Assembly: GCA_001798075.1 (NCBI GenBank)
Contig: MGRG01000005.1
Coordinates: forward strand, 193,148-257,147
Direction: 5' to 3'
Source of the DNA: Deltaproteobacteria bacterium RIFCSPHIGHO2_01_FULL_43_49
GTDB taxonomy: Bacteria; UBA10199; SPLOWO2-01-44-7
DNA: 64,000 nt
A program made the position numbers and the translations under genes. Positions within the stretch are counted from its first letter, which is position 1. Every line of letters begins with the position of its first letter. Under the pieces are notes generated by a model that saw only the letters and a list, made by a program, of their open reading frames with translations, was not told the DNA's origin and searched no databases. Positions 45,234-64,000 of this stretch are shown piece by piece.

Positions 45234-45236
45234 TTT

Positions 45237-46520: not shown

Positions 46521-46578
46521 TTTTTACTTTATCTTTAAAAACGTTTACAGAATGTCTTAAATTGTTTAGAATTCAACC

Positions 46579-47388: not shown

Positions 47389-47399
47389 ATAGGGCAAAG

Positions 47400-48260: not shown

Positions 48261-48262
48261 TC

Positions 48263-49892: not shown

Positions 49893-51320
49893 TTAATCTA
49901 CAATTCTGTAATTTTGCACCCGACTTTCCAATCCTTCCCAAATCGCTTCTACCGCCAAACCGTCAGTCAACCCATTGGCAATAAACCGCCCCATATCTAC
50001 GCAATGGTCGCTATTATTGTAATTGTAAAAACCGATCCGCCCGGTGGAAATAAAATTACTATTTTTTTTCAACTCCCTGTAGAGGGAACTCGTAATCTCT
50101 TTATAATGCAGATCATAACGAGGATAAAATTTTGGAAAACGTTTTACAAAAGAAAAAAGGACATCCCCTTTATCTATTAAGCCACATCGCTCTAAACCAT
50201 TTATGCAAAGGTGAGATAATTCTGTGTCGCTCCTATTCCATAACTCACCGCCATATTCTCCCGTAAAGTCACAGCAAAGGAGAGTTTTGTCTTGTGGTAT
50301 CATATCGATGCTCATATTCTTTTGTTCAAAAACCCTCCCAAATAAAAATTCCCTTCCTGGAAAAAAGATCCAATGGTCCTTCGTCACCTGTTTTTTCATA
50401 AGACCGATATAAACCAAAAACACGGCTCGGTATTGAAGTCTTTTAGACAATGCCAATAATTCTCCTGTTGTCTTATCCTTCTCATGACTCATTAGTTCCA
50501 AAGCAACATCAAAGGGAAGAGTGGAAATTAAATAATCAACTGGTAAAGTTATAGTGCCGCTGGGCCGATTGATAGTTACTTCCTTGATTCTATTCTTTTC
50601 TAAATAAATCTTCAGTGGCGTGGCCTGAGTAAAAATCTGTCCTCCATGCTTTGTTATTTCTTCTCCCATTCTAAGCGGGATGCGACCGAATCCCATTTTG
50701 GGATAATAAAAATAAGTCGCGTCGGTAAGGACGTTTTCTTTTTTTAGGCGCACAATTCTTGTCATTAGCTCAAGTACATTTTGACTGGGTATCCTAGCCT
50801 TTGCAATATCTGCCGACAATGTCTCGGGCGATCCCCATGTTTTTTCAGCTAAAGGCCTAAAAACTAAATCATAGATAGTACGGCCAAAATGGTGGAGGCA
50901 ATATTCTTCAAAAGAAAGACTGTTCTTTTGACGAGAGGCCGTGTTTTTTAGAAGGATTTTCAGAAAATCAAGCCCACAGTGAAAAATATTTCTGAACCTC
51001 ATTTGCAAAGCGAGTTCTGAAAATTGAAGAGGGTAGTTTAAATATTTTCCAAAGAGATAAATACGATTTTTTTTTTCGTGTGTTAATAATTCATTTCCCA
51101 TCAATGTTTTAATTTCATCCAGAACTCCGGGAAGGGTAGAAAAACACTTGTGGGGACCGTAGTCCAATAACATATCCTCATGGGAAAAAGTGCCACACAT
51201 CCCCCCCAAAACGGACTCCTTCTCAATAACCGTCACATCAAACCGGCCGGTACGGGAAAGCATCCATCCTGCCGAAAGTCCCCCGACTCCCCCCCCAAAA
51301 ATAACGACCTTCTTTTTCAT
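49893..51320 (-). CDS. FAD-dependent oxidoreductase (amine-oxidase/protoporphyrinogen-oxidase-like fold)
   Basis: VVIFGGGVGGLSAGWML ... VTVIEKESVLGG dinucleotide-binding motif. Confidence 0.7.
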   Translation of the reverse strand: MKKKVVIFGGGVGGLSAGWMLSRTGRFDVTVIEKESVLGGMCGTFSHEDMLLDYGPHKCFSTLPGVLDEIKTLMGNELLTHEKKNRIYLFGKYLNYPLQFSELALQMRFRNIFHCGLDFLKILLKNTASRQKNSLSFEEYCLHHFGRTIYDLVFRPLAEKTWGSPETLSADIAKARIPSQNVLELMTRIVRLKKENVLTDATYFYYPKMGFGRIPLRMGEEITKHGGQIFTQATPLKIYLEKNRIKEVTINRPSGTITLPVDYLISTLPFDVALELMSHEKDKTTGELLALSKRLQYRAVFLVYIGLMKKQVTKDHWIFFPGREFLFGRVFEQKNMSIDMIPQDKTLLCCDFTGEYGGELWNRSDTELSHLCINGLERCGLIDKGDVLFSFVKRFPKFYPRYDLHYKEITSSLYRELKKNSNFISTGRIGFYNYNNSDHCVDMGRFIANGLTDGLAVEAIWEGLESRVQNYRIVD

Positions 51321-51323
51321 CCC

Positions 51324-52253
51324 TTATCTCTTCCAAGCAATGACAAGTGTTTGACCTATCCAGTAAGGAACTTGCACGCTTTGTAACCTCAATTTTTGGA
51401 CAAGTTTTTTACCAAGGTGGCCCATTTTTGGAAAATAAGCCTGCATGCGACGAAAAATATATTCAACTTCTAATGTTTGGAAATGAGGTTTGAATGCAAC
51501 AATTTTGAAGCCACAGTGCTTTAGTAAATTTGTGATGGAAGTTTTTGTAAAGTAATAAAGATGAACGGAGAGTAGAAAGACCCATTTTCTACCCATAAAC
51601 TTTGAAATCCAGCTGCCAACGTCGGGATAATTGACGATAAGCAATCCCCCCGGGCGTAAAATGCGATGACATTCCTCCAAAACTTTTCTGGGTGATGGAG
51701 TGTGTTCCAAAACATCCCAAAGAGTAATAATATCAAAAGTTGCATCCTCACAATTCAAGCTTTGGATTTCTCCAGCATGAATGGGAATTCCATATTGTTT
51801 TTGTCCCCATTCACAAAGCCATCGGTTTGGTTCACAACCCACCACATCCCACCCTCTTTTTTTGGCAACATACAAAAAGGAGCCTCCGGCTGCGCCAACA
51901 TCCAAAATTTTTCCCTTGTCCGATTTTTTCCAGAACCTCTCCACAATATTGAGACAACGCTCAAAGGTTCTTTCCCTTGCTTTTGCTTGGGAAACAAAAG
52001 TGGTGTCATTGCCACTGGCGTATCCCTCTAGAATCAGTGAGGCATTCAAACGAGGATTCACATAGGTCAGACCACACTGGGTACACCGAACAACTTGATC
52101 AATAAGGATTTCATCTCCAGAGCTTCTGAATTTTTCTTCGATATCGGTGTATCGTTGTTTTTCATAACAGGCGGGGTAAATAATTATATAGTTATCGCTT
52201 TCACACAGATCACATTTTATCTGTTCTAAGGGAAGATTCGTAGAAACAGTCAT
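51324..52253 (-). CDS. class I SAM-dependent methyltransferase with N-terminal Cys4 zinc ribbon
   Basis: CDLCES...CTQCGL zinc ribbon. ILDVGAAGGSF motif I. Confidence 0.75.
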   Translation of the reverse strand: MTVSTNLPLEQIKCDLCESDNYIIIYPACYEKQRYTDIEEKFRSSGDEILIDQVVRCTQCGLTYVNPRLNASLILEGYASGNDTTFVSQAKARERTFERCLNIVERFWKKSDKGKILDVGAAGGSFLYVAKKRGWDVVGCEPNRWLCEWGQKQYGIPIHAGEIQSLNCEDATFDIITLWDVLEHTPSPRKVLEECHRILRPGGLLIVNYPDVGSWISKFMGRKWVFLLSVHLYYFTKTSITNLLKHCGFKIVAFKPHFQTLEVEYIFRRMQAYFPKMGHLGKKLVQKLRLQSVQVPYWIGQTLVIAWKR

Positions 52254-53134
52254 TTTCTTTTTAGGAGGATATGCAGCTCTCGGAAGCGGGTATTGACAGA
52301 ACTCAAAACCATCCCAATTCCGAACATGAAAAAGGAGAGCAGGAGTAAGGCTACGGCAAGAATGGTCCCGAAAGTATTAGCAATCTTGAGATAGCATCCG
52401 ATACTTAAGAAGGCCATTAGCAGAGCAACAGCCGAAAAAATACGTAAGGGATGATGATCCCGAAGCAAAACAGCAATGGTGAGCAAGATGCGGTATCCAT
52501 CATAGAAAGTGTGTAGTTTCGAGTGACTACCGCGGGGGCGTTCTTTGTACCCAATGGGGATCTCTTTGATGGTCATTCTTTGCTCGATGGCTTGCAAGGT
52601 GAGTTCTGTCTCGATTTGGAAGCCGGTAGTAATTAATGGGATGTGCCTGACAAAATTTTTGCTAAAGACCCTATAACCTGACAAGATATCCTTGAATTTT
52701 GTTCTGAAGCAAAAATTGAGAAAGCCTGTAAGCAAGTGGTTGCCAAATCGGTGTAGCCAACGCATTCCATTGCCTCCAGGAGTTTCCAATCTTGTTCCAA
52801 CAACCATATCGGCTTCACCTTTTTGAATACAATCTACCATAGGATGGACGCTTTTCACGGGATAAGTGTCATCCCCATCCACTAGGACAATGATGTCTGA
52901 CTGAACGTGAGCAAAGATGGCCTGGACAACACTTCCTTTTCCTTTGCGATTTACTCGAACAACGGTCGCATTTTTGCTTTTTGCAATGGAGGCTGTCCTG
53001 TCGGTTGAGTTATTGTCAAAGACAATCATTTCGGCTTGTGGCAACTCTTTGCGAAAATCGTCAATGACTTTACCAATGGTTGACTCTTCATTAAAACAAG
53101 GGATGACTACGCAGATTGTCGGTTCTTTATCCAA
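52250..53134 (-). CDS. GT2 polyprenyl-phosphate glycosyltransferase (GtrB/ArnC/DPM1-like, two C-terminal TM helices)
   Basis: ICVVIPCFNEE, DNNSTD and VLVDGDD motifs. Two C-terminal TM segments. The ORF track runs to 53278, overlapping the upstream gene by 142 bp. The TTG at 53134 is preceded by GGAGAA and is the likely start. Confidence 0.8.
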   Translation of the reverse strand: MDKEPTICVVIPCFNEESTIGKVIDDFRKELPQAEMIVFDNNSTDRTASIAKSKNATVVRVNRKGKGSVVQAIFAHVQSDIIVLVDGDDTYPVKSVHPMVDCIQKGEADMVVGTRLETPGGNGMRWLHRFGNHLLTGFLNFCFRTKFKDILSGYRVFSKNFVRHIPLITTGFQIETELTLQAIEQRMTIKEIPIGYKERPRGSHSKLHTFYDGYRILLTIAVLLRDHHPLRIFSAVALLMAFLSIGCYLKIANTFGTILAVALLLLSFFMFGIGMVLSSVNTRFRELHILLKRK

Positions 53135-53136
53135 TG

Positions 53137-54600
53137 TCAGATTCTCCTTGCTTTCAAAATGAGCCCCCAAGTTTTCAAGGCGCGGTAAGGGGTCATCTCC
53201 ATTTTTGTCTCGAAGCGCAGCTTCAGAAAATTCATTATTTGCCTTAATATTTTTTGTGGATGGTAAAGGAGTTTCCATAAGAGAAAGCGACGATATAATC
53301 GAAAGCGAAATTTCGCCAATTTTTTATAGTCTCTTCTCCAAGAAGGGGAGAAAGTCAATTCCGAATAGTTTTTAAACCCGGAAAATTCGTTATAGATTTT
53401 AGAGCCAGGTACGGGGGTAATGATAAATTGGGCTATTTCATCAATACCAGCCTTTGTTAGGAGGCGCGCCAAATTTATTGTCTGTTTTCTGTCTTCATCA
53501 TCTTCCCCCGGGAATCCCAAAACAAAACAGGCCTGGGAGAAAATTCCAAAATGATTCATTGCCTTCACAAGCTGTGTAGCATGTCCAATATTAAATGGTT
53601 TTTGGATCTTTTGCATAATTTTGGGCGAGCCCGATTCGGGCGAAATGGAAATGTAACGGCATCCTGCTTTGGCCATCCATTCAATTGTTTTTTCACTTTT
53701 GATCGATTCCACTTTTGTGCCGGCGGCAATTTTCCAAATAATTTTTAGTTTTTTCTCCACGATTTTTTGGCACAAAGTCTGGATGCGTTCATCATTAATA
53801 GTGGGATTAACATCTTCAATGTGAAATTCACTAACTCCCAGGGTTTTTTGAAACCATTCCATCTCGGCAACAACATTTTCCGCCGATCTGGCGCGCCATT
53901 TCTGATTATTAGTTTCAGGAATAACGCAAAACCGACAAGGATAGGGACATCCTCTGGAGGTTAGCAAAGGAAGATAGCGTTTTGTTTCAAAGGGCCCATG
54001 TGCATAACGCAAATTCCAGTAGTTTTGGAGTGGAAAGAGATCCCAAGCAGGGAAGGGGAGTTTGTCTAAGTCTTCAATTTGTTTGTCATTTTCAAGAAGG
54101 GTATGCAATTCTTCAGAAGAACCATTTTTTTCCAGAGCCCCAACAAATTTTAAGCCCTTTTCTTCAACTTCTCCCGTCAAAACATAGTCGACGCCGACTG
54201 AATAAAAATCTTTTTGGACCGCTTTGAGTGAATAAGCGGTTACAGCCTGAGTGTTTTCAAAAACAATAATGGGAATTTTTGGAAAACTTTGTTTTAATCT
54301 CTTTGCAATTTCAATAGTTGAATAATGGCTGGCAAGGTTGATGGCATAGAGAAAAAACGCTTTTGTTTGAGGCGCGATTTTATCAACAACATCTTGGGTT
54401 GTTAATCCCCGAATCACAAAGCCATTTTCGAAACGACTTTTTTGTGGTGCCTCTCCAAAAGCATCGATGATCCCAAACTTTATTTTGTTTTGTCTCAAGA
54501 CAGCAGCGAAATAAGCCAACCCGATTGGCATATAAACGATACCTGTTGTAAAGGGGTCTGATTTCTGAACAATCAAATTAGGATTGATGAGGGTATACAT
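53137..54600 (-). CDS. B12-binding domain radical SAM protein (class B), paralog of 48263..49873
   Basis: N-terminal B12-binding-like domain. Radical SAM cluster motif SRGCPYPCRFCVIP. Confidence 0.8.
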   Translation of the reverse strand: MYTLINPNLIVQKSDPFTTGIVYMPIGLAYFAAVLRQNKIKFGIIDAFGEAPQKSRFENGFVIRGLTTQDVVDKIAPQTKAFFLYAINLASHYSTIEIAKRLKQSFPKIPIIVFENTQAVTAYSLKAVQKDFYSVGVDYVLTGEVEEKGLKFVGALEKNGSSEELHTLLENDKQIEDLDKLPFPAWDLFPLQNYWNLRYAHGPFETKRYLPLLTSRGCPYPCRFCVIPETNNQKWRARSAENVVAEMEWFQKTLGVSEFHIEDVNPTINDERIQTLCQKIVEKKLKIIWKIAAGTKVESIKSEKTIEWMAKAGCRYISISPESGSPKIMQKIQKPFNIGHATQLVKAMNHFGIFSQACFVLGFPGEDDEDRKQTINLARLLTKAGIDEIAQFIITPVPGSKIYNEFSGFKNYSELTFSPSWRRDYKKLAKFRFRLYRRFLLWKLLYHPQKILRQIMNFLKLRFETKMEMTPYRALKTWGLILKARRI

Positions 54601-54602
54601 GG

Positions 54603-55787
54603 TTAGCTATTTGATTCCTTGTCTCTAAGATAGGAATACCGCTCTTTGGTTAGAAGTTTTGCCCCTGGGAATTTTTGTATTTTGTGCATGATATTATGCA
54701 ATGATACATCATTGAGAGGGCAGGTATTGCAAATGTTCAAATCACACCGATTTGTTTTTAGTTTTACACGAAAAGTTTGATAACCCTTCCCATTCCAGAC
54801 TTCTTCAAACGATTTTTCCTGGAGGTTTCCAAGCTTCATTTGGTAATCGTAATAGAGACAACAGGGATTGACTCGTCCATCCCAGGAAACAGCCACAACA
54901 TAGTAGGGAAAATAACAGGGCCCTTTTCCATCGAGGGAATTCTTTAGGTCCTCAGAAATGGTTGTCAGATTCCTAACGACCTCTGTCATTTTATATTGTG
55001 CAGCCAGCCCAATTGCTTGACTCAGAATTTCTTGAATCAGGGGTGAGTTTTTCAGAATTCTAGACTGTTGTTGTTCGATGTCGTAACCGTAACCCCTCGC
55101 AAAAGTTGGAATAATTTTCAATTTTTCATGGCAGAATTGAACCATCAACGGCACTTCATGGATATTGTCTTGAGTGATCGTGAAATTAATCGTAATAACT
55201 ATTTTTGATTTTTCTTGTTCGGTAATCTTTTTAAATTCTTGAATCCCTTCAATGGTTTTTTGAAATTTGGCCCCGACCCTTATTTTTTCAAAATTTTCCG
55301 GGGTTGGGCTATCTATGGAAAACCATATCTGATCTAGTCCGGTCTTGATGATTTCACGGGAAAGTTTGCTATTGAGCATGGTTGCATTAGAAGAGATGCG
55401 GGCGGTAATTTTTCTTTTCTTACAATACCTTACCATTTCCAGTATTTGTGGATTCAAAAAAGGTTCGCCAAATCCGACAAATGCGACGAAAATAGGATCA
55501 ATACCGCCACAGATTTTTTTGAAAAACTCAAATTTCATATGTCTTAAATCGCGGGTAATCGATTCGGTGCGAGGGCACATTGTGCATTTTAAATTACAAA
55601 CACCTGTTGGCTCTATATGAAGGAAGAGGGGATTTTTTGCCCTTTTTGTTCCACGATACATGGCAAAGCCCGTTTCAAACATCCTTTTGACATTCCGAGG
55701 GCTTAATTTCAAAACTTGCAACGCCACCTGAAAATGTTGGGATGACTCTTGCAGTTTTTTGATGAGTAAATGTTTAGTGTCAAACAT
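54603..55787 (-). CDS. radical SAM protein with C-terminal SPASM/twitch-like Cys cluster
   Basis: GVCNLKCTMCPR CxxxCxxC motif. The C-terminal region has additional Cys residues (CYFPYY...CCLYYD...CNTCPLN). Confidence 0.78.
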   Translation of the reverse strand: MFDTKHLLIKKLQESSQHFQVALQVLKLSPRNVKRMFETGFAMYRGTKRAKNPLFLHIEPTGVCNLKCTMCPRTESITRDLRHMKFEFFKKICGGIDPIFVAFVGFGEPFLNPQILEMVRYCKKRKITARISSNATMLNSKLSREIIKTGLDQIWFSIDSPTPENFEKIRVGAKFQKTIEGIQEFKKITEQEKSKIVITINFTITQDNIHEVPLMVQFCHEKLKIIPTFARGYGYDIEQQQSRILKNSPLIQEILSQAIGLAAQYKMTEVVRNLTTISEDLKNSLDGKGPCYFPYYVVAVSWDGRVNPCCLYYDYQMKLGNLQEKSFEEVWNGKGYQTFRVKLKTNRCDLNICNTCPLNDVSLHNIMHKIQKFPGAKLLTKERYSYLRDKESNS

Positions 55788-55789
55788 GA

Positions 55790-56431: not shown

Positions 56432-56603
56432 GAGTAATATTGTTGAATTGTTTGTTGATAGAGTTTCTTTAATAACCTATTTTGAAATAGTGGCTTGGGC
56501 TAAATGGCATACGACTGATTTCTAAGTTCCGGACTTTTTTGGTAGAGGGAAAACATCGGTGCATCATAATGAAGGCCGGCAATGCGGATGATTCTAAAGC
56601 TTC

Positions 56604-57755: not shown

Positions 57756-57758
57756 TTT

Positions 57759-58859
57759 TTAAATTTTTTCCGATTCCAGGACTGTTTGTATAATAAATTC
57801 GATTTGGCTTTCTGCAAGTTCTGGATACATGGGTAAACTCACTACTTGATTGGCTGCCCTTTCCGTTATCGGCAGTGATCCATAAGGAATTTGCTGATTG
57901 CTGCAAGCAGGCTGTCGATGCAAAGGGATTGGGTAGTGAATTCCCGTAACAATTCCTTGTTCCTTTAATTTCGCTTGTAGAGTTGTTCGATTGGAATGAC
58001 GAATAACAAAAAGATGCCAGACCGATTCTGTTTGAAGGCTGGTTTTAGGAAGAACAATATCGCTTTCCTTTAAAGCCTCCAGATAACAAGAGGCAAGGTG
58101 GCGTCGTTTGGCGTTCCATGAATCGAGATATTTGAGTTTCACACGAAGGATTGATGCTTGCAGTTCATCAAGCCTGCTATTTATGCCAAGAGTTTTGTGA
58201 GTGTATTTTTCTTGCCGACCGTGGTTGGCAAGCATTCTAACCTTTTGGATGAGACTTTCATTTTGGCTTATAACAGCCCCTCCATCACCAAAAGCCCCCA
58301 GATTTTTTCCAGGATAAAAACTGAAACAGGCTGCATCACCAAAACTGCCGACTCTTTTTTGTTTCCAGCGAGCTCCATGGGCCTGTGCAGCATCCTCGAT
58401 AACCTTTAATTGATATTTTTTGGCAATGTTTACGATGGCATCCATGTCACAAGGCTGGCCATACAGATGAACTGGGATAATGGCCCGAGTGGCTTTCGTG
58501 ATGGCTTTTTCAACCAGGGCTGGATTCATCAGCATGGTATCTTCACAAATATCGACAAAAACCGGTTTTGCGCCGACAGAGGCAATAGCCTCAATTGTGG
58601 CAATAAATGTGTTGGCCACGGTGATGACTTCATCGCCGGCTCCAATTCCTAAGGCCCTTAGGGTAAGGTGAAGCGCATCCGTTCCATTACCAACCCCCAC
58701 GCAGGCTTTTATTTCACAGTAGCTGGAAAATTCTTTTTCAAAACAGTCTACTTCTTTGCCTTGGATAAAAGTTCCCCCTTCCAAAACGTTGCGTATGGCG
58801 GCATCTATCTCTCCTTGGATTGTTTTATACTGGGCTTTAAGATCAATGAGTGGAATCAT
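57759..58859 (-). CDS. DegT/DnrJ/EryC1/StrS family PLP-dependent sugar aminotransferase (ArnB/WbpE-like)
   Basis: [11 protein letters not shown] start. [18 protein letters not shown], where the Lys in PGKNLG is the PLP-binding residue. Confidence 0.9.
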
Positions 58860-60768
58860 TTCTTTTGTAAAAATCAAAATATGAAAATTGATGATGTAGC
58901 GTGTAATGGGGTTTCAAATTTCGAACCAGTTTTTCCGGTTTTGGGAAGAAGGAGTTTTCCAGACCATAAGGATATAATGATCGATTAATCACAACCCACT
59001 CAATGCGCTTTTCATCGATTTCCTTGGCGAAGGCGTCCAGGTTTTTATCCAGCGGTGCTTCATGAAAGTTGCTTTGCATAGTGGGAAAGGGTTTATCTGC
59101 CAAAAAGAAGGGGAGTGCCAGATCAGGATATCCAGCAATGGTATCTTGTTTTGGCAATTTTTTGAGTTCATTTACTACCTCCACAAAAGGTCTATTCCAT
59201 TCATGAGTGTATCCTCGCCATCTTTCCAAATCCACTTTGATGCTGAATTGGGGATTAATGATCCAACGTTCGTGGATTCCGACGAATGCCACGACAACGA
59301 TGAAGAGACCACCACTGAGAAGCCCAGCAATTTTTTGATGATATGGCCGGGGTTCTTTATCGTTCGTTAACAAAGTGATGAAAGTGGAACCAAAAATTAT
59401 ACAAGATGTAATAAAAATACCAGATGTATAAAGAGTTGAGGGATAAGGGAACATGAGAGCTGAGATGGTCGACGTAAAAATCAATGTTGCTGCCATTGTC
59501 ATCACAGCAGGTTCTTTGGATTTGGTTCTTAGAAAAAACCAAGAGGTCAGGAGTCCTATTGGCAACCAAATAATAGCAAACCATTGCCAATGGTAATTAG
59601 TAGCATCGGAAAACCATAAAAGGTAGTTGGCAACTCTCCATTCCAAAACCGCTTTAGGTCCATACAAAACACACCCTGTTAAAACTATTGATAGAAATAG
59701 TAACAATCCCCAAGTTAAAATGTATAAACCATTTGACCGGTATTGCGCCTTTTTCAAAAAAATACTCACACCGAAAGTGCCAAAAATCCCAAACCATAAA
59801 GTTATATCTTGCAAGGTGATGTCAGGTATCGGCGCTATCCAATGATCTATGGTTTTTGGCATTCGAATAAAAGTTTCGTGAATTATTTGTAAAAGATTAA
59901 CTCCCTTAAACAAGTACCAGAGGCAGAGTGGTGCCAACCCAATGATTATAGAAAACACAAGAATTGCTAAATGACGGACAAAATCACCAACACCCCTCAC
60001 GTTGTTTGATGCGAATCGTTCTTTTCCCGGGAACAATGCAAAGAGCAAAATGAGCATTGTCGATAAAACCCATGGGATGAGAAGCCAATAATTTTGAGTT
60101 GGAAAAGAAAGATGGCTGTTTAGTCTCAGAGGGATAAAGGCAAGAAGGAGGATCAATCCTGGGAGCGTAAAAAATATTCGATGCCATCTCTTTACATTAG
60201 AGAAAACACAAAATTGAAGGGAAATTATTTGGACCAGAGCCACAACAGAAAAAACTCCAGTCTGTTTGAAATTAAAACAAAAACCTGCAAGAAACCCTGC
60301 AAGCATTAAAAATAGCATCTTCCTTGTTTTTATCCATTCAAGCATGCCACCAAGACAACCGATCATTAGAATTTGTGTGACAGTTCCTGGTCCTGAAAAC
60401 CAAAGGACAAGGCCGGACATCCAAAAGGAACTCAGGGCCACTGTAGCAGATAGAAAAGGGTTGACAAAGCGTGAACATATAAAAAACACGACGCAGGCAA
60501 GCAATACAAAAAGAAAAAACGTCAGAGCGTGGTAGATGCTGCCATGGAGTCCAAATAACTTGAAAAGAAAGGCTAGAAAGACAGAATAACCACCCATATA
60601 TCCCAAGTGGTTATCGACGTTAGGAATTTGTCCTAGATAAGTTCTCCAAGCGTCAACAATCATAACTCCATCATTCCAATTGTCGACCAATTTCCCCATT
60701 CTTCCAAAACCAACTAGTCCCACGAGAACAATGAGAACAAAAAAAATAAGAAATTTTTTTAAAGACAT
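58843..60768 (-). CDS. large polytopic membrane protein, GT-C-like glycosyltransferase candidate (ArnT/PMT/GtrC-like)
   Basis: About 12 TM helices. Acidic first extracytoplasmic loop (DNWNDG, VDAW). About 130-aa soluble C-terminal domain. Confidence 0.4.
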
Positions 60769-61343
60769 TTGGCAGGATTTCCGGCGACGGTTGTTTTCGG
60801 ATCCACATTTTTTGTAACGACAGCACCAGCACCCACAATTGCAGAAGCTCCAACAATGACACCGGGCAGAATCGTTGCATTGGCTCCAATCACGGCATTT
60901 TTATCAATCACCACGCCCTTGAGATTTTGTTTAGTCATAGGGGTGTTTGGATATTTTGCATTCGTCAAAACAACGTTGGGGCCTATCCAGCATCCATCCT
61001 CCAAAATACAATATTCGGGAATGAAGGCCTGTGTGTGGACCCGAACTCCGTTGCCAATGGTGACATGGTGCTCCACAACCGATAAAGTTCCAATACTTAC
61101 ATTATCACCTATTTGGTTGCCCTCTCGGATATTAGTTTTGTTACCCGTTTTGAAATTTTTTCCAATGATGTTTCCGGCGTAGATGACTGTGTGGGATCGA
61201 ATAACTGCGTTGTCTCCTATTATTGTTTCATAGTTTTTCGGATCTTGACCAACCGGTGGAATGCCAATGATGCAAAAATCCTCAACAATACAGTTTTTAC
61301 CGAGCTTCGTATTCGGATAAATGATGGCGTTGGAACTAATCAT
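60759..61343 (-). CDS. hexapeptide-repeat sugar N-acyltransferase (left-handed beta-helix; WbpD/PglD-like)
   Basis: Consecutive [LIV]-G-x-x-x-x hexads (IGDNAVI, IGKNF, IGDNVSIG, IGNGVRV, IGPNVVL, IGANATI). Confidence 0.8.
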   Translation of the reverse strand: MISSNAIIYPNTKLGKNCIVEDFCIIGIPPVGQDPKNYETIIGDNAVIRSHTVIYAGNIIGKNFKTGNKTNIREGNQIGDNVSIGTLSVVEHHVTIGNGVRVHTQAFIPEYCILEDGCWIGPNVVLTNAKYPNTPMTKQNLKGVVIDKNAVIGANATILPGVIVGASAIVGAGAVVTKNVDPKTTVAGNPAKCL

Positions 61344-61352
61344 CCTCGTCTC

Positions 61353-62198
61353 TTATCTATCCTTGGACAAAGGGACTTGAGCCTTTACTACCATGTAAAA
61401 TCCCAGCCGCCCCTCCAGTTTTTTGTCGATAAGTCTTAGAACAGTTTTAAATCGTGACATCCTTTTCAAACACTCTGGTATTCTTGTAAAGCCAGTTTGG
61501 TAACAATCAATTTCTATATCTTTAAACCTACCGAACATTTTTTTTGCTTCACGTTTAGAAAAACTCTTAAGCACAGGACACTTAAATAACTCGAATAGCG
61601 ATGTCCCATGTTCTGGATTTTCAGCATTTGGATCAATTTTGAGAATCTTATGGGATAAATTCAACAAGGCATCAGCCCCTAGTATTTTTGAAAGCTGTCG
61701 TATTAAAAAAATGACTGTCTGTTGCAGTGCATATTTTCTATAAAGCATCACAATGGCCTTCCCTCCTGGTCTTAAAACTCTATAAATCTCACTGACCGCT
61801 TTCTGGGGATGAGGAGTATGATGTAAAACCCCATACGAATAGGCTATATCAAAAACATTATTCCCAAACGGAAATTTTTCACCATCCCCCTGAATTAATC
61901 TTGCTCTTTCTAAAATACCTGTTTCATCAAGCCCAATTTTTGCTTGCCTCAACGATTCCCCCGATAAATCAATTGCTGTTACTTCTCCACCTTTAATTGC
62001 TATAAGGGTTGTATCCAATCCTGGGCCACAACCTATTTCAACCACCTGTTTATTTTCAAAATCTTCTCCATTTATCAAATCAAAGATATGTGGCTCCCTT
62101 TCATACCTCCATGTCATCTTCAACCTATGGGAAGTCCACCTGCCACCCATTGGATGGGTATCCCAAAATTTTCTTACCTCCGCTTTAATGTTATCCAT
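61353..62198 (-). CDS. class I SAM-dependent methyltransferase
   Basis: VVEIGCGPGLD motif I. AIDLS motif II. Confidence 0.75.
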   Translation of the reverse strand: MDNIKAEVRKFWDTHPMGGRWTSHRLKMTWRYEREPHIFDLINGEDFENKQVVEIGCGPGLDTTLIAIKGGEVTAIDLSGESLRQAKIGLDETGILERARLIQGDGEKFPFGNNVFDIAYSYGVLHHTPHPQKAVSEIYRVLRPGGKAIVMLYRKYALQQTVIFLIRQLSKILGADALLNLSHKILKIDPNAENPEHGTSLFELFKCPVLKSFSKREAKKMFGRFKDIEIDCYQTGFTRIPECLKRMSRFKTVLRLIDKKLEGRLGFYMVVKAQVPLSKDR

Positions 62199-62221
62199 AA
62201 AAGGTCACAGGTAAAGTGCAA

Positions 62222-63259
62222 TCAAATATTTTTGATACATTGTGATTTTAACGCTTTCTGTCCCGCCTCCAAAACAGCCACCACATCTCTTGCGTGTTTT
62301 GGGCCTGTCAGTGGCTCCGAGCCATTTAGGATACAACCTAAAAAATGATCCACTTCAACTTTTAAGGGTTCTTCAGAAGAGATTTTTGGAAACCAAACAT
62401 CGCCTTTGCGTTGTAGAAATTGGAAGTTGGCAAAATTATCATAGTCCATTTGTTCACCAACTCGCGGAATTCGATCAATTCCCTTGTCTAAAATCGTAAT
62501 TTTGTTTTCGCTAATGTCATCATAGATTGCCATTTTCTTCTCACCCACCACCGTCATTTTTCGCACTCTATCCGGATCCAGCCAGCTCACATGAATATTG
62601 GCTATGACTTTGTTTTCCCACACCAGATGGGCAAAGACGACATCTTCAATGCCTCGTTGAATATAATCCATTCCATGAGCCCTTACCTCAGAGGGAAGTT
62701 TTCCATCCATCAAATAAAGCAAGATGCTTACATCGTGGGGAGCAAGATTGAACCAGGCGTTGATATCACTGCGCAGTTGGCCCAAGTTGAGACGCTGGCT
62801 ATAAATATAATAAATATGTCCCAACTCACCTTCAACAATTAATTTTTTCAAGTAGCGCACGGCGGGATGATATAAAAACGTATGTCCCACCATTAAAACG
62901 CGCCCTCTTTTCTGAAAGCTCGTTGATAGCTCCTCTGTTTGTTGCACTGTCATGGCAAGTGGTTTTTCCACCAAAACATGCTTGCCGGCCTCAAGTGCTA
63001 TTTTGGCGAGTTCAAAATGTGTAGCAGCCGGTGTGGCGATCACAATGGCATCAATTTCTTTGTCATCGAGGACCTTTTTAAAATCGGGTGTTGCCTTGCT
63101 TAGAGGGAAGTGCGTTTCTACATAAGCTCTTCTTTCAGCGTTGGTTTCCACAACCCACTTAACATGGCAGTTGGGGTGAGCGGTAAAATTGCGCAGCAAG
63201 TTCGGCCCCCAATAACCGCATCCTATTTGCGCAACGTTAATTTTTTTTTGATTGGTCAT
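62222..63259 (-). CDS. Gfo/Idh/MocA family NAD(P)-dependent oxidoreductase (NDP-sugar dehydrogenase WbpB-like)
   Basis: VAQIGCGYWG Rossmann motif. EKPLA motif. Confidence 0.85.
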   Translation of the reverse strand: MTNQKKINVAQIGCGYWGPNLLRNFTAHPNCHVKWVVETNAERRAYVETHFPLSKATPDFKKVLDDKEIDAIVIATPAATHFELAKIALEAGKHVLVEKPLAMTVQQTEELSTSFQKRGRVLMVGHTFLYHPAVRYLKKLIVEGELGHIYYIYSQRLNLGQLRSDINAWFNLAPHDVSILLYLMDGKLPSEVRAHGMDYIQRGIEDVVFAHLVWENKVIANIHVSWLDPDRVRKMTVVGEKKMAIYDDISENKITILDKGIDRIPRVGEQMDYDNFANFQFLQRKGDVWFPKISSEEPLKVEVDHFLGCILNGSEPLTGPKHARDVVAVLEAGQKALKSQCIKNI

Positions 63260-64000
63260 GCCTTCGAATGGGTTTGAAGTGTCATTGGGCGCTCATGGAT
63301 GTGACCTTTTTCATCGTACTGATGACCGACTGTGTTAAAACGCTCTCCACACATTACAGCGCATCTTTCTAGCTTTCCATGTGCCACCGTTTTCAAACGC
63401 CAAGATTGCTCAATCAAATTAAAAAAAGTCTCTTCGACAATTGTTTTTAACGGACGCTTTTTTGCATTGATGGAGTCCATCCCACCGTTTTTGTCGATCA
63501 TTGCTAATAACTGTTTGGAAGAAGGGGTATCTTCCACTTGAATACCATACAGCCGGTCGTGAAGCCAGCCACAAGGAAATACTAAACCTTCTGCTGAGAC
63601 GTAAAGTTCCGACTTTCGTTTGGCATTACAGGTGATGTGTGTCTGATCCAGATACTTCGAAAAAGACCCGTACTTTTTTACAACATTCTCATATAAGGAT
63701 AGGCTTTGATTCTGATATTGTGGTTGTTCCGGTTTTTCCAAAAAATATTCAATTTCACCATTTTTATTGAGCACGGGTTGCTTGTCCAACATTTTATGGT
63801 TCTTATCAAAAAAACGCCCTGTCCTTTTAGCTGTGAAATTTGAAAACCCCATTTCTTTGGAGAATTGCCTAGCGCTTTCCACTTGGTGTTCGTTGTGCTT
63901 AAAAACAATAAAATCCCAGTTAGCTCGCCCACCCTCTCCAATAAATATTTTGGCGTTCTCAATAATTTTTTTGAAGCTCGTATTTCTTCGATAAATGGCG
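63256..64000 (-). CDS. hypothetical Cys-containing protein, 5' end beyond the window (partial)
   Basis: The reading frame stays open upstream of the ORF-track GTG start (63882) all the way to the window edge (...GEGGRANWDFIVFKHNEHQVESARQF...). The C-terminal region has scattered Cys residues (CNAKRK...FPCGW...CAVMCG). First gene of the minus-strand glycan operon as seen here. Confidence 0.45.
   Translation of the reverse strand, partial: AIYRRNTSFKKIIENAKIFIGEGGRANWDFIVFKHNEHQVESARQFSKEMGFSNFTAKRTGRFFDKNHKMLDKQPVLNKNGEIEYFLEKPEQPQYQNQSLSLYENVVKKYGSFSKYLDQTHITCNAKRKSELYVSAEGLVFPCGWLHDRLYGIQVEDTPSSKQLLAMIDKNGGMDSINAKKRPLKTIVEETFFNLIEQSWRLKTVAHGKLERCAVMCGERFNTVGHQYDEKGHIHERPMTLQTHSKA

What the first reader, a model, noticed from the sequence alone, without database searches (positions are those of the whole stretch)
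49893..64000. Arn-like polyprenyl-phosphate amino-sugar pathway carrying three radical SAM enzymes and four methyltransferases in a single minus-strand operon
About 14 co-directional, mostly overlapping genes. The core resembles lipid-linked amino-sugar modification pathways (ArnB-like DegT aminotransferase, Gfo/Idh/MocA dehydrogenase, hexapeptide acyltransferase, GtrB/ArnC-like GT2 with two C-terminal TM helices, a 641-aa GT-C-like membrane protein). The tailoring load is atypical for such pathways. Two paralogous B12-binding class B radical SAM proteins are present (48263..49873 on the facing strand and 53137..54600). Class B enzymes are normally methylases of unactivated carbon or phosphorus centres. 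There is also a SPASM-type radical SAM, four class I methyltransferases (two with zinc ribbons, one with C-methyltransferase-like architecture), and an FAD oxidoreductase. This predicts a heavily C/N/O-methylated, N-acylated amino sugar delivered through a polyprenyl-phosphate carrier to a lipid or glycan acceptor. I cannot match this combination to a described pathway. The region also appears AT-richer by eye than the flanking housekeeping genes, which would fit horizontal acquisition.
Basis: partly seen in the sequence, partly recalled or inferred. Interest (0 to 1): 0.8.

Follow-up and report, generated by a model that had tools for sequence, protein, structure and literature searches.

The report
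Surface-sugar gene island hiding a conserved cassette
This stretch of an uncultured groundwater bacterium is a patchwork cell-surface sugar gene island, and inside it sits a four-gene cassette (a radical enzyme, a lipid-carrier sugar transferase, a methyltransferase and a sugar ring-contracting enzyme) that recurs across many bacterial and archaeal phyla and has no known product.

Summary
The genes are present as described: 13 complete and one cut-off co-directional minus-strand genes, with the stated domain families. The cluster runs at least 10 kb past the window end. It is not one Arn-like pathway but a mosaic.

(1) The Gfo/Idh/MocA, DegT and hexapeptide genes look like the ordinary UDP-GlcNAc 3-dehydrogenase, 3-aminotransferase and N-acetyltransferase set. 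The DegT protein is far closer to C3-aminotransferases than to ArnB.

(2) Window 49893-54600 is a conserved cassette: rSAM487, a Dol-P-Man-synthase-like GT2, the zinc-ribbon methyltransferase MT309, and a flavoprotein. The flavoprotein keeps residues aligned to six UDP-galactopyranose mutase active-site positions. In 83 other loci the rSAM (45-59% identical) travels with the methyltransferase (71), the GT2 (63) and the mutase-like gene (49). It never travels with the amino-sugar genes.

(3) The 641-aa protein has a GT-C fold.

(4) The SPASM rSAM and the facing-strand B12-rSAM are accessories, found embedded with the cassette in one other lineage.

rSAM487 lacks the B12 fingerprint, and its best structural match is the AprD4 diol dehydratase. 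The GC dip is real but small (40.7% against 43.9%).

Most likely function: a lipid-linked, probably furanose, sugar is tailored by the rSAM and methyltransferase, then transferred outside the cytoplasm. I found no description of the cassette.

The parts
48263..49873 (+). rSAM536: class B-type radical SAM protein with a canonical B12-binding domain. It is the last gene of a plus-strand operon with the ATPase and HAMP genes, convergent with the cassette.
   Evidence: Pfam B12-binding 68.4 bits (cutoff 32.1) and Radical_SAM 61.9 bits. It carries the CPYQCTFC motif and a 'VLGGEH' GG motif. It is 27% identical to rSAM487. A 53.5% orthologue sits inside a cassette in a Magnetococcales MAG, L067. Elsewhere the family lies beside DegT and GT2 genes.
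49893..51320 (-). UDP-galactopyranose-mutase-like flavoprotein (475 aa), a cassette member. Probably a nucleotide-sugar pyranose/furanose mutase.
   Evidence: The best solved relatives are eukaryote-type UGMs, matched over the full length (4dsg, E 1.9e-16). Family-invariant H57, R176, R329, Y399 and Y434, and near-invariant N435/N436, align with A. fumigatus UGM H63, R182, R327, Y419, Y453 and N457. Pfam GLF reaches only 17 bits, below its cutoff. It co-occurs with rSAM487 orthologues in 49 of 83 loci at a median 42% identity.
51324..52253 (-). MT309: zinc-ribbon plus class I SAM methyltransferase, a cassette member.
   Evidence: Methyltransf_23 93.7 bits. It is the most faithful partner of rSAM487, present in 71 of 83 loci at a median 51% identity.
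52250..53134 (-). GT2 polyprenyl-phosphate glycosyltransferase with two C-terminal TM helices, a cassette member. The ORF extends to 53278, but the likely start is 53134.
   Evidence: Glycos_transf_2 93.9 bits. The best NCBIfam hit is AglJ (222 bits, cutoff 325). The best PDB match is P. furiosus Dol-P-Man synthase 5mlz, with ArnC weaker. TM helices lie at 280-298 and 306-324. The gene call on the source contig gives 294 aa. Present in 63 of 83 loci.
53137..54600 (-). rSAM487: the cassette's signature radical SAM enzyme, with an N-terminal Rossmann domain and a radical SAM barrel. Cobalamin use is uncertain.
   Evidence: Radical_SAM 69.5 bits with no Pfam B12-binding hit. All NCBIfam class-B hits fall far below their cutoffs. 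Orthologues are 45-61% identical across many bacterial phyla and four archaeal MAG lineages. The AF2 model has pLDDT 89. Its best fold match is AprD4 (TM 0.67-0.72), followed by MgmA, TsrM, OxsB and TokK.
54603..55787 (-). SPASM394: radical SAM enzyme with a SPASM domain, an accessory to the cassette.
   Evidence: Radical_SAM 60 bits and SPASM 59 bits. Orthologues of 35-68% identity lie next to the cassette in L015, L069, L075 and L067, and next to an rSAM536 orthologue in L086.
55790..56431 (-). MT213: small class I methyltransferase.
   Evidence: Methyltransf_25 and Methyltransf_11 hits. A 60% orthologue lies beside the SPASM gene in L015.
56604..57755 (-). MT383: zinc-ribbon plus class I methyltransferase with a C-terminal extension. 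Specificity unknown.
   Evidence: Methyltransf_23 62 bits. It gave no Methyltransf_13/14 hit, and no sugar C-methyltransferase appeared among its PDB matches. No orthologue was found beside the cassette elsewhere.
57759..58877 (-). DegT-family sugar aminotransferase of the C3-aminotransferase clade.
   Evidence: DegT_DnrJ_EryC1 425 bits. PDB matches: 7b0d 427, DesV 391, QdtB 376, WbpE 318 and ArnB 197 bits.
58843..60768 (-). 641-aa polytopic membrane protein with a GT-C glycosyltransferase fold and a C-terminal soluble domain.
   Evidence: No Pfam, NCBIfam or PDB sequence hit. An exhaustive HMMER search found 108 distant homologues, and 30 of the 46 aligned match PMT_2. The AF2 model has pLDDT 86 and pTM 0.89. 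The top 22 Foldseek PDB matches are all GT-C enzymes: STT3, PglB, DPY19, AftA, ArnT, Emb, Pmt4 and ALG3. About 11 TM segments.
60759..61343 (-). Left-handed beta-helix (hexapeptide) sugar N-acetyltransferase.
   Evidence: Hexapep 91 bits. The best NCBIfam hit is the NeuD/PglB/VioB family at 94 bits, below its 161-bit cutoff.
61353..62198 (-). MT281: class I methyltransferase.
   Evidence: Methyltransf_11 83.6 bits.
62222..63259 (-). Gfo/Idh/MocA oxidoreductase, probably a UDP-GlcNAc 3-dehydrogenase.
   Evidence: GFO_IDH_MocA 96 bits. The best NCBIfam hit is the archaeal UDP-GlcNAc 3-dehydrogenase (151 bits, cutoff 450). The best PDB match is 7bvj.
63256..64000 (-). C-terminal 247 codons of a fourth radical SAM protein (380 aa), cut by the window end.
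   Evidence: The full gene lies on the source contig at L001 8862-10004, equivalent to window 63256-64398. It has C19xxxC23xxC26 and C-terminal Cys residues. Only weak NCBIfam SPASM/twitch-type hits were found.
42141..48260 (.). Context genes: a Wzc-like tyrosine autokinase (42141-44135, minus strand), two Wza-like export proteins (44190-46520, minus strand), an XrtA/PEP-CTERM-type ATPase-like gene (46579-47388, plus strand) and a HAMP-domain membrane protein (47400-48260, plus strand).
   Evidence: TIGR01007 168 bits, which passes its 108-bit cutoff. Poly_export and SLBB hits. TIGR03015 208 bits, below its 324-bit cutoff. HAMP domain.

Best explanation
The region is part of a surface-glycan biosynthesis island of at least 24 kb in an uncultured Rifle-aquifer bacterium. 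The island sits next to Wza/Wzc-type export genes and is built from separable modules.

**Module 1 (inferred from family resemblance).** This is a standard cytoplasmic nucleotide-sugar line.
- The Gfo/Idh/MocA enzyme oxidises UDP-GlcNAc at C3.
- The DegT enzyme aminates C3.
- The hexapeptide transferase N-acetylates, giving a 2,3-diacetamido sugar.
- A 6-dehydrogenase and AglZ/HisF2-type acetamidino genes lie just beyond the window.

**Module 2 (gene linkage shown, chemistry inferred).** This is a widely conserved cassette.
- The UGM-like flavoprotein converts a nucleotide hexopyranose to the furanose.
- The Dol-P-Man-synthase-like GT2 loads that sugar onto polyprenyl phosphate.
- rSAM487 and its constant partner MT309 modify the sugar. 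The likely changes are C-methylation or a radical rearrangement or dehydration, plus O-methylation.
- A GT-C enzyme then transfers the modified sugar to a glycan or protein outside the cytoplasmic membrane. Here the 641-aa protein is the only GT-C in the window.

**Accessories.** SPASM394, rSAM536, the truncated rSAM380 and three further methyltransferases are lineage-variable tailoring genes.
For: **Source and extent**
- The window matches a 321-kb Rifle metagenome scaffold, and the cluster continues beyond the window.
- The continuation holds a nucleotide-sugar dehydrogenase (TIGR03026, passes cutoff) and an AglZ/HisF2 acetamidino protein (NF038364, 350 bits against a 310-bit cutoff).
- All products are named 'hypothetical protein' in the MAG records.

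**Module 1**
- The DegT protein is nearest to C3-aminotransferases, including WbpE.
- The Gfo protein is nearest to UDP-GlcNAc 3-dehydrogenase models.

**Module 2**
- 80 GTDB loci and 3 other contigs carry rSAM487 orthologues at 45-59% identity.
- Within 10 kb, MT309 orthologues occur in 71 of the 83 loci, the GT2 in 63 and the UGM-like gene in 49.
- The order rSAM-GT2-MT-UGM is strict in 25 loci.
- The UGM-like gene and an alternative sugar-supply set never occur together (set annotated). That set comprises a beta-phosphoglucomutase-like HAD, a GlmU-N-like nucleotidyltransferase and a CofD/YvcK-like::GT2 fusion. This is what interchangeable donor-supply modules would look like.
- A polytopic membrane protein (6-18 TM) lies directly upstream of the rSAM in roughly half of the loci. 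Several reach PMT_2, and one matches YfhO.
- In the UGM-type version of the cassette, most GT2 orthologues have 2-3 predicted C-terminal TM helices.
- Residues aligned to six UGM active-site positions are conserved.
- The GT-C fold of the 641-aa protein is supported.

**Accessories**
- In L067, SPASM and rSAM536 orthologues are embedded inside a cassette.
- SPASM orthologues follow the cassette in L015, L069 and L075.
Against: - No flippase gene (GtrA, MATE or Wzx type) was recognised in the window.
- The 641-aa GT-C is separated from the cassette by four genes. A 28%-identical homologue (P0149) sits in a glycan cluster without the rSAM, so pairing this GT-C with the cassette's GT2 is only an inference.
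- rSAM487 lacks the canonical B12-binding signature, and its best fold match is a dehydratase, so the chemistry at that step is open.
- In the alternative cassette version the GT2 is soluble, so a lipid carrier is less certain there.
- All assignments rest on family-level similarity below curated equivalog cutoffs.
- No product is known from any organism that carries the cassette.
Confidence: 0.6

Rival explanations
1. All of these genes form one Arn-like linear pathway. A UDP-amino sugar is made, N-acylated and heavily C/N/O-methylated by the rSAM enzymes and methyltransferases. It is then loaded on polyprenyl phosphate by the GT2 and transferred by the GT-C.
For: - The genes are co-directional and tightly packed, with overlapping stops and starts.
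- A DegT aminotransferase, an acyltransferase, a GT2 with TM helices and a GT-C enzyme are all present.
Against: - In 83 loci with the rSAM487 cassette, the Gfo, GT-C and acetamidino genes were never found within 10 kb. A DegT-type gene appeared in only 5 loci and a hexapeptide-type gene in 1.
- The DegT protein belongs with C3-aminotransferases, not ArnB.
- The ArnB and ArnC models score far below their cutoffs.
- No match to ArnA-, ArnD- or ArnE/F-type families appeared among the Pfam/NCBIfam hits for any gene.
- The cassette carries its own donor-supply enzyme, the UGM-like protein, which an amino-sugar route would not need.
Confidence: 0.1
2. The gene architecture is the same as in the best explanation, but rSAM487 is not a cobalamin-dependent methylase. 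It would be a B12-independent radical SAM enzyme of the AprD4 kind that dehydrates, epimerises or rearranges a vicinal diol of the sugar, for example the exocyclic 5,6-diol of a hexofuranose. MT309 would then provide the only methyl group.
For: - The best structural match is the diol dehydratase AprD4 (TM 0.67-0.72, E 9e-18), ahead of the cobalamin enzymes MgmA, TsrM, OxsB and TokK.
- rSAM487 gave no Pfam B12-binding hit.
- Where rSAM536 has 'VSCM' and 'LGGEH', positions of the classical SxL...GG cobalamin fingerprint, rSAM487 has 'YAINL' and the family-invariant 'E115-N116-T-Q118'.
Against: - By sequence, the family scores higher against class B models (Sden_1168 P-methyltransferase 143 bits, HpnJ 131, BchE 110) than against the AprD4 model (68 bits).
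- About a quarter of the listed orthologues carry a precomputed Pfam B12-binding hit.
- AprD4 works with a partner reductase (from memory), and no reductase is conserved in the cassette.
- The genome does use cobalamin, as shown by a class II ribonucleotide reductase at 35871-39098.
Confidence: 0.3
3. The cassette does not decorate a glycan. The modified polyprenyl-phosphate sugar, or a glycolipid derived from it, would be the end product and a membrane component.
For: - No flippase was recognised.
- The GT-C gene is variable, and it is absent next to the rSAM in roughly half of the loci.
- The cassette occurs in organisms with very different cell envelopes, including DPANN-type archaea.
Against: - The cassette is normally embedded among GT4, GT2, epimerase, ABC-transporter and MarR-EPS regulator genes typical of surface polysaccharide loci.
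- Here it sits beside Wza/Wzc export genes.
- A polytopic protein, often PMT_2-like, lies directly upstream of the rSAM in many loci.
Confidence: 0.1

Closest known systems
Three-component extracytoplasmic glycosylation systems: GtrA/GtrB/GtrV O-antigen glucosylation, ArnC/ArnT, and the polyprenyl-phospho-pentofuranose / MATE / GT136 system of Citrobacter (Kelly et al. 2024, PMC11127046)
   Same: - A membrane-anchored GT2 resembling Dol-P-Man synthase, AglJ and ArnC makes a polyprenyl-phosphate sugar.
- A GT-C-fold enzyme is encoded nearby.
- The setting is a surface-polysaccharide locus.
- A furanose donor is plausible, as in the pentofuranose systems.
   Different: - No flippase gene was recognised.
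- The donor would come from a UGM-like mutase plus a GT2, rather than from a PRPP-dependent synthase.
- A radical SAM enzyme and a methyltransferase are constant members of the cassette, and no described three-component system has them.
- The GT-C proteins match no curated GT-C family model.
UDP-2,3-diacetamido-2,3-dideoxy-glucose(uronic acid) pathway: WbpA/WbpB/WbpE/WbpD of Pseudomonas aeruginosa, WlbA-C of Bordetella, GnnA/GnnB, and the archaeal N-glycan AglXYZ acetamidino step
   Same: - A Gfo/Idh/MocA 3-dehydrogenase-like gene, a C3-type DegT aminotransferase (WbpE at 318 bits) and a hexapeptide N-acetyltransferase are present.
- A nucleotide-sugar 6-dehydrogenase and an AglZ/HisF2 acetamidino protein lie just beyond the window.
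   Different: - All hits except AglZ/HisF2 and the generic dehydrogenase model fall below equivalog cutoffs.
- No WbpI-type 2-epimerase was identified.
- A methyltransferase gene is interleaved with the set.
Cobalamin-dependent (class B) radical SAM enzymes acting on sugars or lipids (GenK, GenD1, Fom3, HpnJ, HpnR), and the B12-independent look-alike AprD4
   Same: - A two-domain build: an N-terminal Rossmann domain plus a radical SAM barrel with CxxxCxxC.
- A carbohydrate setting.
- rSAM536 has a bona fide B12-binding domain.
   Different: - rSAM487 scores well below every curated family cutoff and lacks the SxL...GG fingerprint.
- rSAM487 forms its own highly conserved family (about 58% identity across phyla) with fixed GT2 and methyltransferase neighbours.
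- Neither its substrate nor its reaction is known.
UDP-galactopyranose mutase (eukaryote-type, e.g. Aspergillus fumigatus and Trypanosoma cruzi UGM)
   Same: - Full-length similarity (E about 1e-16).
- An FAD-binding GxGxxG motif.
- Invariant residues aligned with the His loop, both diphosphate-binding arginines and the two active-site tyrosines.
   Different: - The Pfam GLF and TIGR00031 models are not reached.
- Sequence identity to solved UGMs is low.
- The substrate sugar and nucleotide are unknown.
- It is always linked to a lipid-carrier GT2 rather than to a Leloir galactofuranosyltransferase.

Membership tests
Arn (L-Ara4N lipid A modification) pathway | ArnB-type UDP-4-keto-pentose C4 aminotransferase | tested here: not met
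   NF008658 scores 249 bits against a 631-bit cutoff. The PDB ArnB match is 197 bits, against 318-427 bits for C3-aminotransferases.
Arn (L-Ara4N lipid A modification) pathway | ArnC undecaprenyl-phosphate Ara4FN transferase | tested here: not met
   NF007986 scores 31.9 bits against a 529-bit cutoff. The GT2 is closer to AglJ and Dol-P-Man synthase.
Arn (L-Ara4N lipid A modification) pathway | ArnA (decarboxylase/formyltransferase), ArnD (deformylase) and ArnE/F (flippase) genes | tested here: not met
   Every ORF of at least 180 aa in 42000-64000, and the genes between the window end and the hisH-like gene on the source contig (about 9 kb), were scanned against NCBIfam. The window ORFs were also scanned against Pfam. 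No ArnA-, ArnD- or ArnE/F-type match was listed.
Three-component (Gtr-type) extracytoplasmic glycosylation system | GT2 polyprenyl-phosphate sugar synthase with C-terminal TM anchor | tested here: met
   Glycos_transf_2 93.9 bits. The best PDB match is Dol-P-Man synthase 5mlz. Two TM helices lie at 280-324. Activity was not tested.
Three-component (Gtr-type) extracytoplasmic glycosylation system | GT-C fold transferase | tested here: met
   The AF2 model has pLDDT 86. The top 22 Foldseek PDB matches are all GT-C enzymes, and 30 of 46 homologues hit PMT_2. The consensus 'DEG' of the first loop reads N32-D33-G34 in this protein.
Three-component (Gtr-type) extracytoplasmic glycosylation system | Dedicated flippase (GtrA, MATE or similar) | tested here: not met
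   No small polytopic ORF and no flippase family hit was found in 49893-64000. A 513-aa protein with 9 TM segments and no family hit lies beyond the window and was not examined further.
Class B (cobalamin-dependent) radical SAM enzymes | CxxxCxxC radical SAM cluster motif | tested here: met
   rSAM536 has CPYQCTFC and rSAM487 has CPYPCRFC. C218, C222 and C225 are invariant in the rSAM487 family.
Class B (cobalamin-dependent) radical SAM enzymes | N-terminal cobalamin-binding Rossmann domain | tested here: inconclusive
   For rSAM536 the feature is met (PF02310, 68 bits against a 32-bit cutoff). For rSAM487 it is unresolved:
- Its N-terminal domain is homologous to that of rSAM536 and is modelled as a Rossmann fold.
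- It gave no Pfam hit, the GG motif is replaced, and the best fold match is AprD4.
- Some orthologues do reach PF02310.
Class B (cobalamin-dependent) radical SAM enzymes | Cobalamin-dependent methyl transfer to an unactivated carbon or phosphorus | not testable with these tools
   This needs reconstituted enzyme and a substrate. Every curated class B equivalog model scores below its cutoff.
UDP-GlcNAc3NAc(A) pathway (WbpA/B/E/D type) | C3 dehydrogenase, C3 aminotransferase and N-acetyltransferase encoded together | tested here: inconclusive
   All three families are present within 5.5 kb. The aminotransferase belongs to the C3 clade. The dehydrogenase's best model is UDP-GlcNAc 3-dehydrogenase, at 151 bits against a 450-bit cutoff. 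The acetyltransferase is assigned at family level only.
UDP-galactopyranose mutase | FAD-binding fold plus conserved His loop, two Arg and two Tyr of the active site | tested here: met
   H57, R176, R329, Y399 and Y434 are invariant in 28 family members, and they align with AfUGM H63, R182, R327, Y419 and Y453. The residue roles are recalled from the UGM literature and were not tested here.
UDP-galactopyranose mutase | Match to curated UGM models (Pfam GLF, TIGR00031) | tested here: not met
   PF03275 scores 17.4 bits against a 26.3-bit cutoff, and TIGR00031 scores 26.8 against 303.75. About one third of homologues have a precomputed GLF hit.
SPASM-domain radical SAM enzymes | Radical SAM core plus C-terminal SPASM Cys-rich domain | tested here: met
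   PF04055 scores 60 bits and PF13186 scores 59 bits against a 21.5-bit cutoff. No equivalog model is reached.

The most novel reading that the evidence does not exclude
rSAM487, MT309 and the GT2 form an ancient, horizontally mobile cassette found across many bacterial phyla and several archaeal lineages. They are joined either by a UGM-like mutase or by a phosphomutase, nucleotidyltransferase and CofD-like set. In this reading the cassette makes a so far undescribed modified sugar on a polyprenyl-phosphate carrier. A radical SAM enzyme would act directly on the lipid-linked, probably furanose, sugar, which would be a new kind of radical SAM chemistry in glycan decoration.
Probability: 0.3. 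Interest if true: 0.8.

Novelty: new variant of a known kind. Interest (0 to 1): 0.6.

Why it matters
Extracytoplasmic decoration of surface glycans through lipid-linked single sugars is a known theme. In the examples I know (Gtr, Arn and the pentofuranose systems) no radical SAM enzyme takes part.

- **Breadth.** The cassette's core enzyme is about 58% identical across phyla. It occurs in Chloroflexota, Planctomycetota, Nitrospirota, Bdellovibrionota, Omnitrophota, Elusimicrobiota, SAR324, a Pelagibacteraceae genome and DPANN-type archaea.
- **Implication.** This points to a common, unrecognised sugar modification on environmental cell surfaces.
- **Tractability.** Two cultured carriers exist, Dissulfurispira thermophila and Fluviispira multicolorata, so the product and the radical SAM reaction can be tested directly.
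- **For this locus.** The result replaces a speculative single pathway with a modular reading in which most parts are ordinary.

Tried and rejected
- **Arn pathway membership.** Rejected on model scores and missing genes.
- **Sugar C-methyltransferase architecture for MT383.** Not supported. It gave no Methyltransf_13/14 hit, and its PDB matches are generic N-methyltransferases.
- **Ladderane, hopanoid, BchE and P-methyltransferase identities for the class B rSAM proteins.** All equivalog scores are 3-8 fold below their cutoffs.
- **HpnE or protoporphyrinogen oxidase identity for the flavoprotein.** Only the N-terminal FAD motif matches.
- **Word-based homologue search for the 641-aa protein.** It found only the protein itself. 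The exhaustive HMMER search was needed.
- **PDB sequence searches with the 641-aa protein and with its family profile.** Neither found anything. Only the fold search identified it.
- **Orthology between rSAM536 and the second rSAM beside the cassette in D. thermophila.** Rejected at 27% identity.
- **Similarity between the 641-aa protein and the D. thermophila PMT_2 protein.** None was found.
- **Riboswitch search.** The window has no Rfam hit at gathering thresholds, so no cobalamin riboswitch.
- **Promoter and terminator scans.** Counts were no higher than in shuffled sequence.
- **Literature.** Eight full-text searches found no description of the cassette. A 2026 review of B12-dependent radical SAM enzymes does not contain the words sugar, glycan or lipid.
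- **Link to the unidentified 174-Da methylated sugar of the Kuenenia S-layer glycan.** This remains only a lead.

Full report
**1. What is in the sequence**

Between 49893 and the window end lies an uninterrupted run of minus-strand ORFs. Most gaps are between -35 and +23 nt. There is one 172-nt gap (56432-56603). An apparent 142-nt overlap disappears when the GT2 start used by the gene call on the source contig (window 53134) is adopted.

Pfam and NCBIfam scans give the following order, from the 3' end of the operon:

| Gene | Family assignment |
|---|---|
| 475 aa | FAD/NAD_binding_8 flavoprotein |
| MT309 | zinc-ribbon class I methyltransferase |
| GT2 | family 2 glycosyltransferase with two C-terminal TM helices |
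| rSAM487 | radical SAM |
| SPASM394 | radical SAM with SPASM domain |
| MT213 | small class I methyltransferase |
| MT383 | zinc-ribbon class I methyltransferase |
| DegT | aminotransferase (425 bits) |
| 641 aa | membrane protein with no family hit |
| Hexapeptide | transferase |
| MT281 | class I methyltransferase |
| Gfo/Idh/MocA | oxidoreductase |
| Truncated ORF | cut by the window end |

On the facing strand, a 536-aa protein with Pfam B12-binding (68 bits) and Radical_SAM domains ends 19 nt from the flavoprotein gene. It is the last gene of a plus-strand operon that begins with an XrtA/PEP-CTERM-type ATPase-like gene and a HAMP-domain gene. Upstream on the minus strand are a Wzc-like tyrosine autokinase and two Wza-like export proteins.

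GC content is 40.7% in the region and 43.9% in 1-41000 (Mann-Whitney p = 9e-4). The dip is real but modest.

**2. Source and true extent**

The proteins match, residue for residue, those of Rifle-aquifer MAGs named 'Deltaproteobacteria bacterium RIFCSPLOWO2...', where all are annotated as hypothetical. On a 321-kb scaffold the cluster continues past the window end.

The truncated ORF is a 380-aa radical SAM protein with CxxxCxxC. It is followed on the scaffold by:
- an SDR;
- a nucleotide-sugar dehydrogenase (TIGR03026, passes its cutoff);
- a second GT2;
- two proteins with no family hit, one with about 9 TM segments;
- a fifth methyltransferase;
- a GT1-like protein;
- an AglZ/HisF2-family acetamidino-modification protein (350 bits against a 310-bit cutoff) with its glutamine amidotransferase partner.

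The window therefore shows about half of a surface-glycan island.

**3. The amino-sugar genes are an ordinary set, and not Arn-like**

The DegT protein's nearest solved relatives are sugar C3-aminotransferases: 7b0d at 427 bits, DesV at 391, QdtB at 376 and WbpE at 318. ArnB scores 197. The ArnB and ArnC NCBIfam models score 249 against a 631-bit cutoff and 32 against 529.

The Gfo/Idh/MocA protein's best NCBIfam model is the archaeal UDP-GlcNAc 3-dehydrogenase (151 bits, below its cutoff). Its best PDB match is 7bvj, which I recall as the UDP-GlcNAc 3-dehydrogenase GnnA. That identification is from memory.

Taken with the hexapeptide N-acetyltransferase, the downstream 6-dehydrogenase and the acetamidino pair, these genes resemble the well-known route to 2,3-diacetamido-2,3-dideoxy-hexuronic acids and their acetamidino derivatives. 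Examples are the Pseudomonas WbpA/B/E/D route, Bordetella Wlb and methanogen N-glycans. This is inference from family resemblance.

**4. A conserved cassette hidden in the operon**

Homologues of rSAM487 are unusually conserved. The best 120 clusters are 55-61% identical over the full length. The named sources include Chloroflexota, a cyanobacterium, Verrucomicrobiota, Bdellovibrionota and the cultured Nitrospirota species Dissulfurispira thermophila.

A scan of one genome per GTDB species confirmed 141 relatives. I kept 80 loci with 10-kb flanks, at 45-59% identity. They include:
- Planctomycetota, Omnitrophota, Elusimicrobiota, Magnetococcales, Nitrospina, SAR324 and a Pelagibacteraceae genome;
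- the cultured Fluviispira multicolorata;
- four archaeal MAGs (Woesearchaeota, Aenigmatarchaeota, Micrarchaeota and Methanocellaceae).

I searched these 80 loci, plus three fetched by exact look-up, with every protein of the island. Counts are the number of the 83 loci with a hit covering at least 60% of the query.

| Island gene | Loci with a homologue within 10 kb (of 83) | Median identity |
|---|---|---|
| MT309 | 71 | 51% |
| GT2 | 63 | 41.5% |
| Flavoprotein | 49 | 42% |
| SPASM394 | 4 | - |
| MT213 | 1 | - |
| DegT-type | 5 (2 at 35% or more) | - |
| Hexapeptide-type | 1 | - |
| Gfo, 641-aa protein, HisF-like | 0 | - |

The order rSAM-GT2-MT-flavoprotein is strict in 25 loci.

A second version of the cassette replaces the flavoprotein with three genes:
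- a beta-phosphoglucomutase-family HAD protein;
- a GlmU-N-terminal-like nucleotidyltransferase;
- a CofD/YvcK-like domain fused to a GT2.

The two versions never occur together. This suggests two interchangeable ways of supplying the donor sugar to a constant trio of rSAM, methyltransferase and GT2.

**5. What the cassette proteins are**

*GT2.* Its best solved relative is the Pyrococcus dolichol-phosphate mannose synthase, and its best NCBIfam model is AglJ. ArnC is weaker. In the flavoprotein version, most orthologues have 2-3 predicted C-terminal TM helices.

*Flavoprotein.* It matches eukaryote-type UDP-galactopyranose mutases over its full length (E about 1e-16). I counted residues in the printed alignment to A. 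fumigatus UGM and checked a 28-member family alignment. The correspondences are:

| Family residue | Conservation | A. fumigatus UGM position |
|---|---|---|
| H57 | invariant | H63 |
| R176 | invariant | R182 |
| R329 | invariant | R327 |
| Y399 | invariant | Y419 |
| Y434 | invariant | Y453 |
| N435/N436 | nearly invariant | N457 |

The roles of those residues are recalled from the UGM literature. The curated UGM models are not reached. The protein therefore probably works like a UGM, but it is not a member of the characterised family.

*rSAM487.* It gave no Pfam B12-binding hit, and all class B NCBIfam models score far below their cutoffs. Its N-terminal domain aligns with the B12-binding domain of rSAM536 (27% identity over the full length). 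However, where rSAM536 has 'VSCM' and 'LGGEH', rSAM487 has 'YAINL' and the family-invariant E115-N116-T-Q118. Those are the SxL and GG positions of the classical cobalamin fingerprint, which is established knowledge rather than something tested here.

The AlphaFold model (pLDDT 89) is most similar to the diol dehydratase AprD4 (TM 0.67-0.72). I recall AprD4 as cobalamin-independent. The next matches are the cobalamin enzymes MgmA, TsrM, OxsB and TokK, and the methylthiotransferases. Whether rSAM487 uses cobalamin, and whether it methylates at all, is therefore open.

**6. The 641-aa protein is a GT-C enzyme**

It has no Pfam, NCBIfam or PDB sequence match, and the word-based search found only itself. 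An exhaustive HMMER search found 108 distant homologues of similar length. Of the 46 I aligned, 30 match Pfam PMT_2.

The AlphaFold model (pLDDT 86, pTM 0.89) has as its top 22 PDB fold matches only GT-C glycosyltransferases: STT3, PglB, DPY19, AftA, ArnT, EmbB/C, Pmt4 and ALG3.

In the other loci, a polytopic membrane protein lies directly upstream of the rSAM in roughly half of the cases. Of the ten I scanned, four reach PMT_2 weakly, one matches YfhO and one is a GT1-family fusion. In D. thermophila a PMT_2 protein closes the cassette.

These membrane proteins are not orthologous to one another or to the 641-aa protein. A 28%-identical homologue of the 641-aa protein (P0149) sits in a glycan cluster without the rSAM. 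Pairing the 641-aa GT-C with the cassette's GT2 in this genome is thus an inference from proximity.

**7. The other radical SAM genes**

In a Magnetococcales MAG (L067), orthologues of SPASM394 (35%) and of rSAM536 (53.5%) lie inside a co-directional second-version cassette that ends with an rSAM487 orthologue. SPASM394 orthologues (49-68%) also follow the cassette in one Planctomycetales and two Omnitrophota MAGs. In one of these a 60% orthologue of MT213 is also present.

A metagenome scan for the rSAM536 family (36-52% identity, 50 loci) placed it mostly beside DegT and GT2 genes without rSAM487 orthologues. One locus again showed SPASM followed by rSAM536.

These genes are therefore recurrent but optional companions in glycan loci.

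**8. Mechanism proposed**

Shown here:
- the gene linkage;
- the fold and family assignments;
- conservation of residues aligned to UGM active-site positions.

Inferred:
- The mutase-like enzyme makes a nucleotide hexofuranose.
- The GT2 transfers it to polyprenyl phosphate.
- rSAM487 and MT309 modify it.
- A GT-C enzyme transfers it to a glycan or protein outside the membrane.
- Meanwhile, the diacetamido and acetamidino sugars are built on nucleotides and used by Leloir transferases.

The closest conceptual precedent is the family of three-component systems, most recently extended to pentofuranoses (PMC11127046).

Weak points:
- No flippase was recognised.
- The rSAM chemistry is unknown.
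- The GT2 is soluble in the second cassette version.
- No product is known from any carrier.

**9. Novelty and score**

Each protein family is known, and the island as a whole is an ordinary kind of hypervariable surface-glycan locus. What is not described, as far as NCBIfam (no model reached) and eight literature searches can tell, is the conserved cassette: a radical SAM enzyme, a methyltransferase and a lipid-carrier GT2, with a mutase-like or nucleotidyltransferase supply module.

I rate it a new variant of a known kind, with interest 0.6. It remains well above ordinary, because the cassette is widespread, highly conserved and experimentally tractable in two cultured species.

Noticed in passing
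window 35871-40039: A class II, B12-dependent ribonucleotide reductase (1075 aa, with a TSCPD domain) lies next to a ThyX thymidylate synthase gene. The organism therefore uses cobalamin, which bears on the radical SAM question.
   Followed up: partly
window 32773-34492: Two tandem squalene/phytoene-synthase family genes (SQS_PSY, 293 and 287 aa) are arranged like HpnC/HpnD, next to ThiI. No HpnE or cyclase gene was found among the ORFs scanned, and the ORFs in 1-27800 were not scanned.
   Followed up: no
window 44190-46520: Both Wza-like export proteins carry long N-terminal extensions. The 427-aa protein has a highly charged, repetitive E/K/Q/R-rich stretch with repeated 'EKEEQKQRE.E.KRR.E.L' units before its Poly_export domain.
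   Followed up: no
window 46579-49873: An XrtA/PEP-CTERM-type ATPase-like gene (TIGR03015, 208 bits, below its cutoff), a HAMP-domain membrane protein and the B12-binding radical SAM gene form one tight plus-strand operon with gaps of 11 and 2 nt. This is an odd pairing of a secretion- or regulation-type ATPase with a radical SAM enzyme.
   Followed up: partly
L005 10001-16856; also L016, L032, L036, L050, L059, L067: An alternative cassette version occurs in Bdellovibrionota, Elusimicrobia, SAR324, Nitrospina and Magnetococcales. It consists of rSAM, methyltransferase, a beta-phosphoglucomutase-like HAD, a GlmU-N-like nucleotidyltransferase, a CofD/YvcK-like::GT2 fusion and a soluble GT2. It never co-occurs with the mutase-like gene.
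   Followed up: partly
L001 1-9260 (beyond the window end): The island continues with an AglZ/HisF2-family acetamidino-modification protein (which passes its NCBIfam cutoff) and its amidotransferase partner. It also holds a nucleotide-sugar 6-dehydrogenase, an SDR, a GT2, a GT1-like protein, a fifth methyltransferase and two proteins with no family hit, one with about 9 TM segments.
   Followed up: partly
L011 (Brocadiaceae MAG), with PMC5088730: An anammox-family MAG carries the rSAM and methyltransferase pair. The S-layer O-glycan of Kuenenia stuttgartiensis contains an unidentified 174-Da unit, described as a dimethyl-deoxyhexose or trimethyl-pentose. No link between the two was tested.
   Followed up: no
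window 56432-56603: This is the only sizeable intergenic gap (172 nt) in the minus-strand run, between MT383 and MT213. It could hold an internal promoter that separates the amino-sugar and GT-C half from the cassette half. The consensus scans were uninformative.
   Followed up: partly
L003 14842-18107 (Dissulfurispira thermophila): In this cultured species the cassette is followed by a second radical SAM gene that carries a B12-binding domain. Its product is only 27% identical to rSAM536. A 596-aa PMT_2 GT-C protein comes next. Second rSAM paralogues also occur beside the cassette in L006, L009, L032, L073 and L077.
   Followed up: partly
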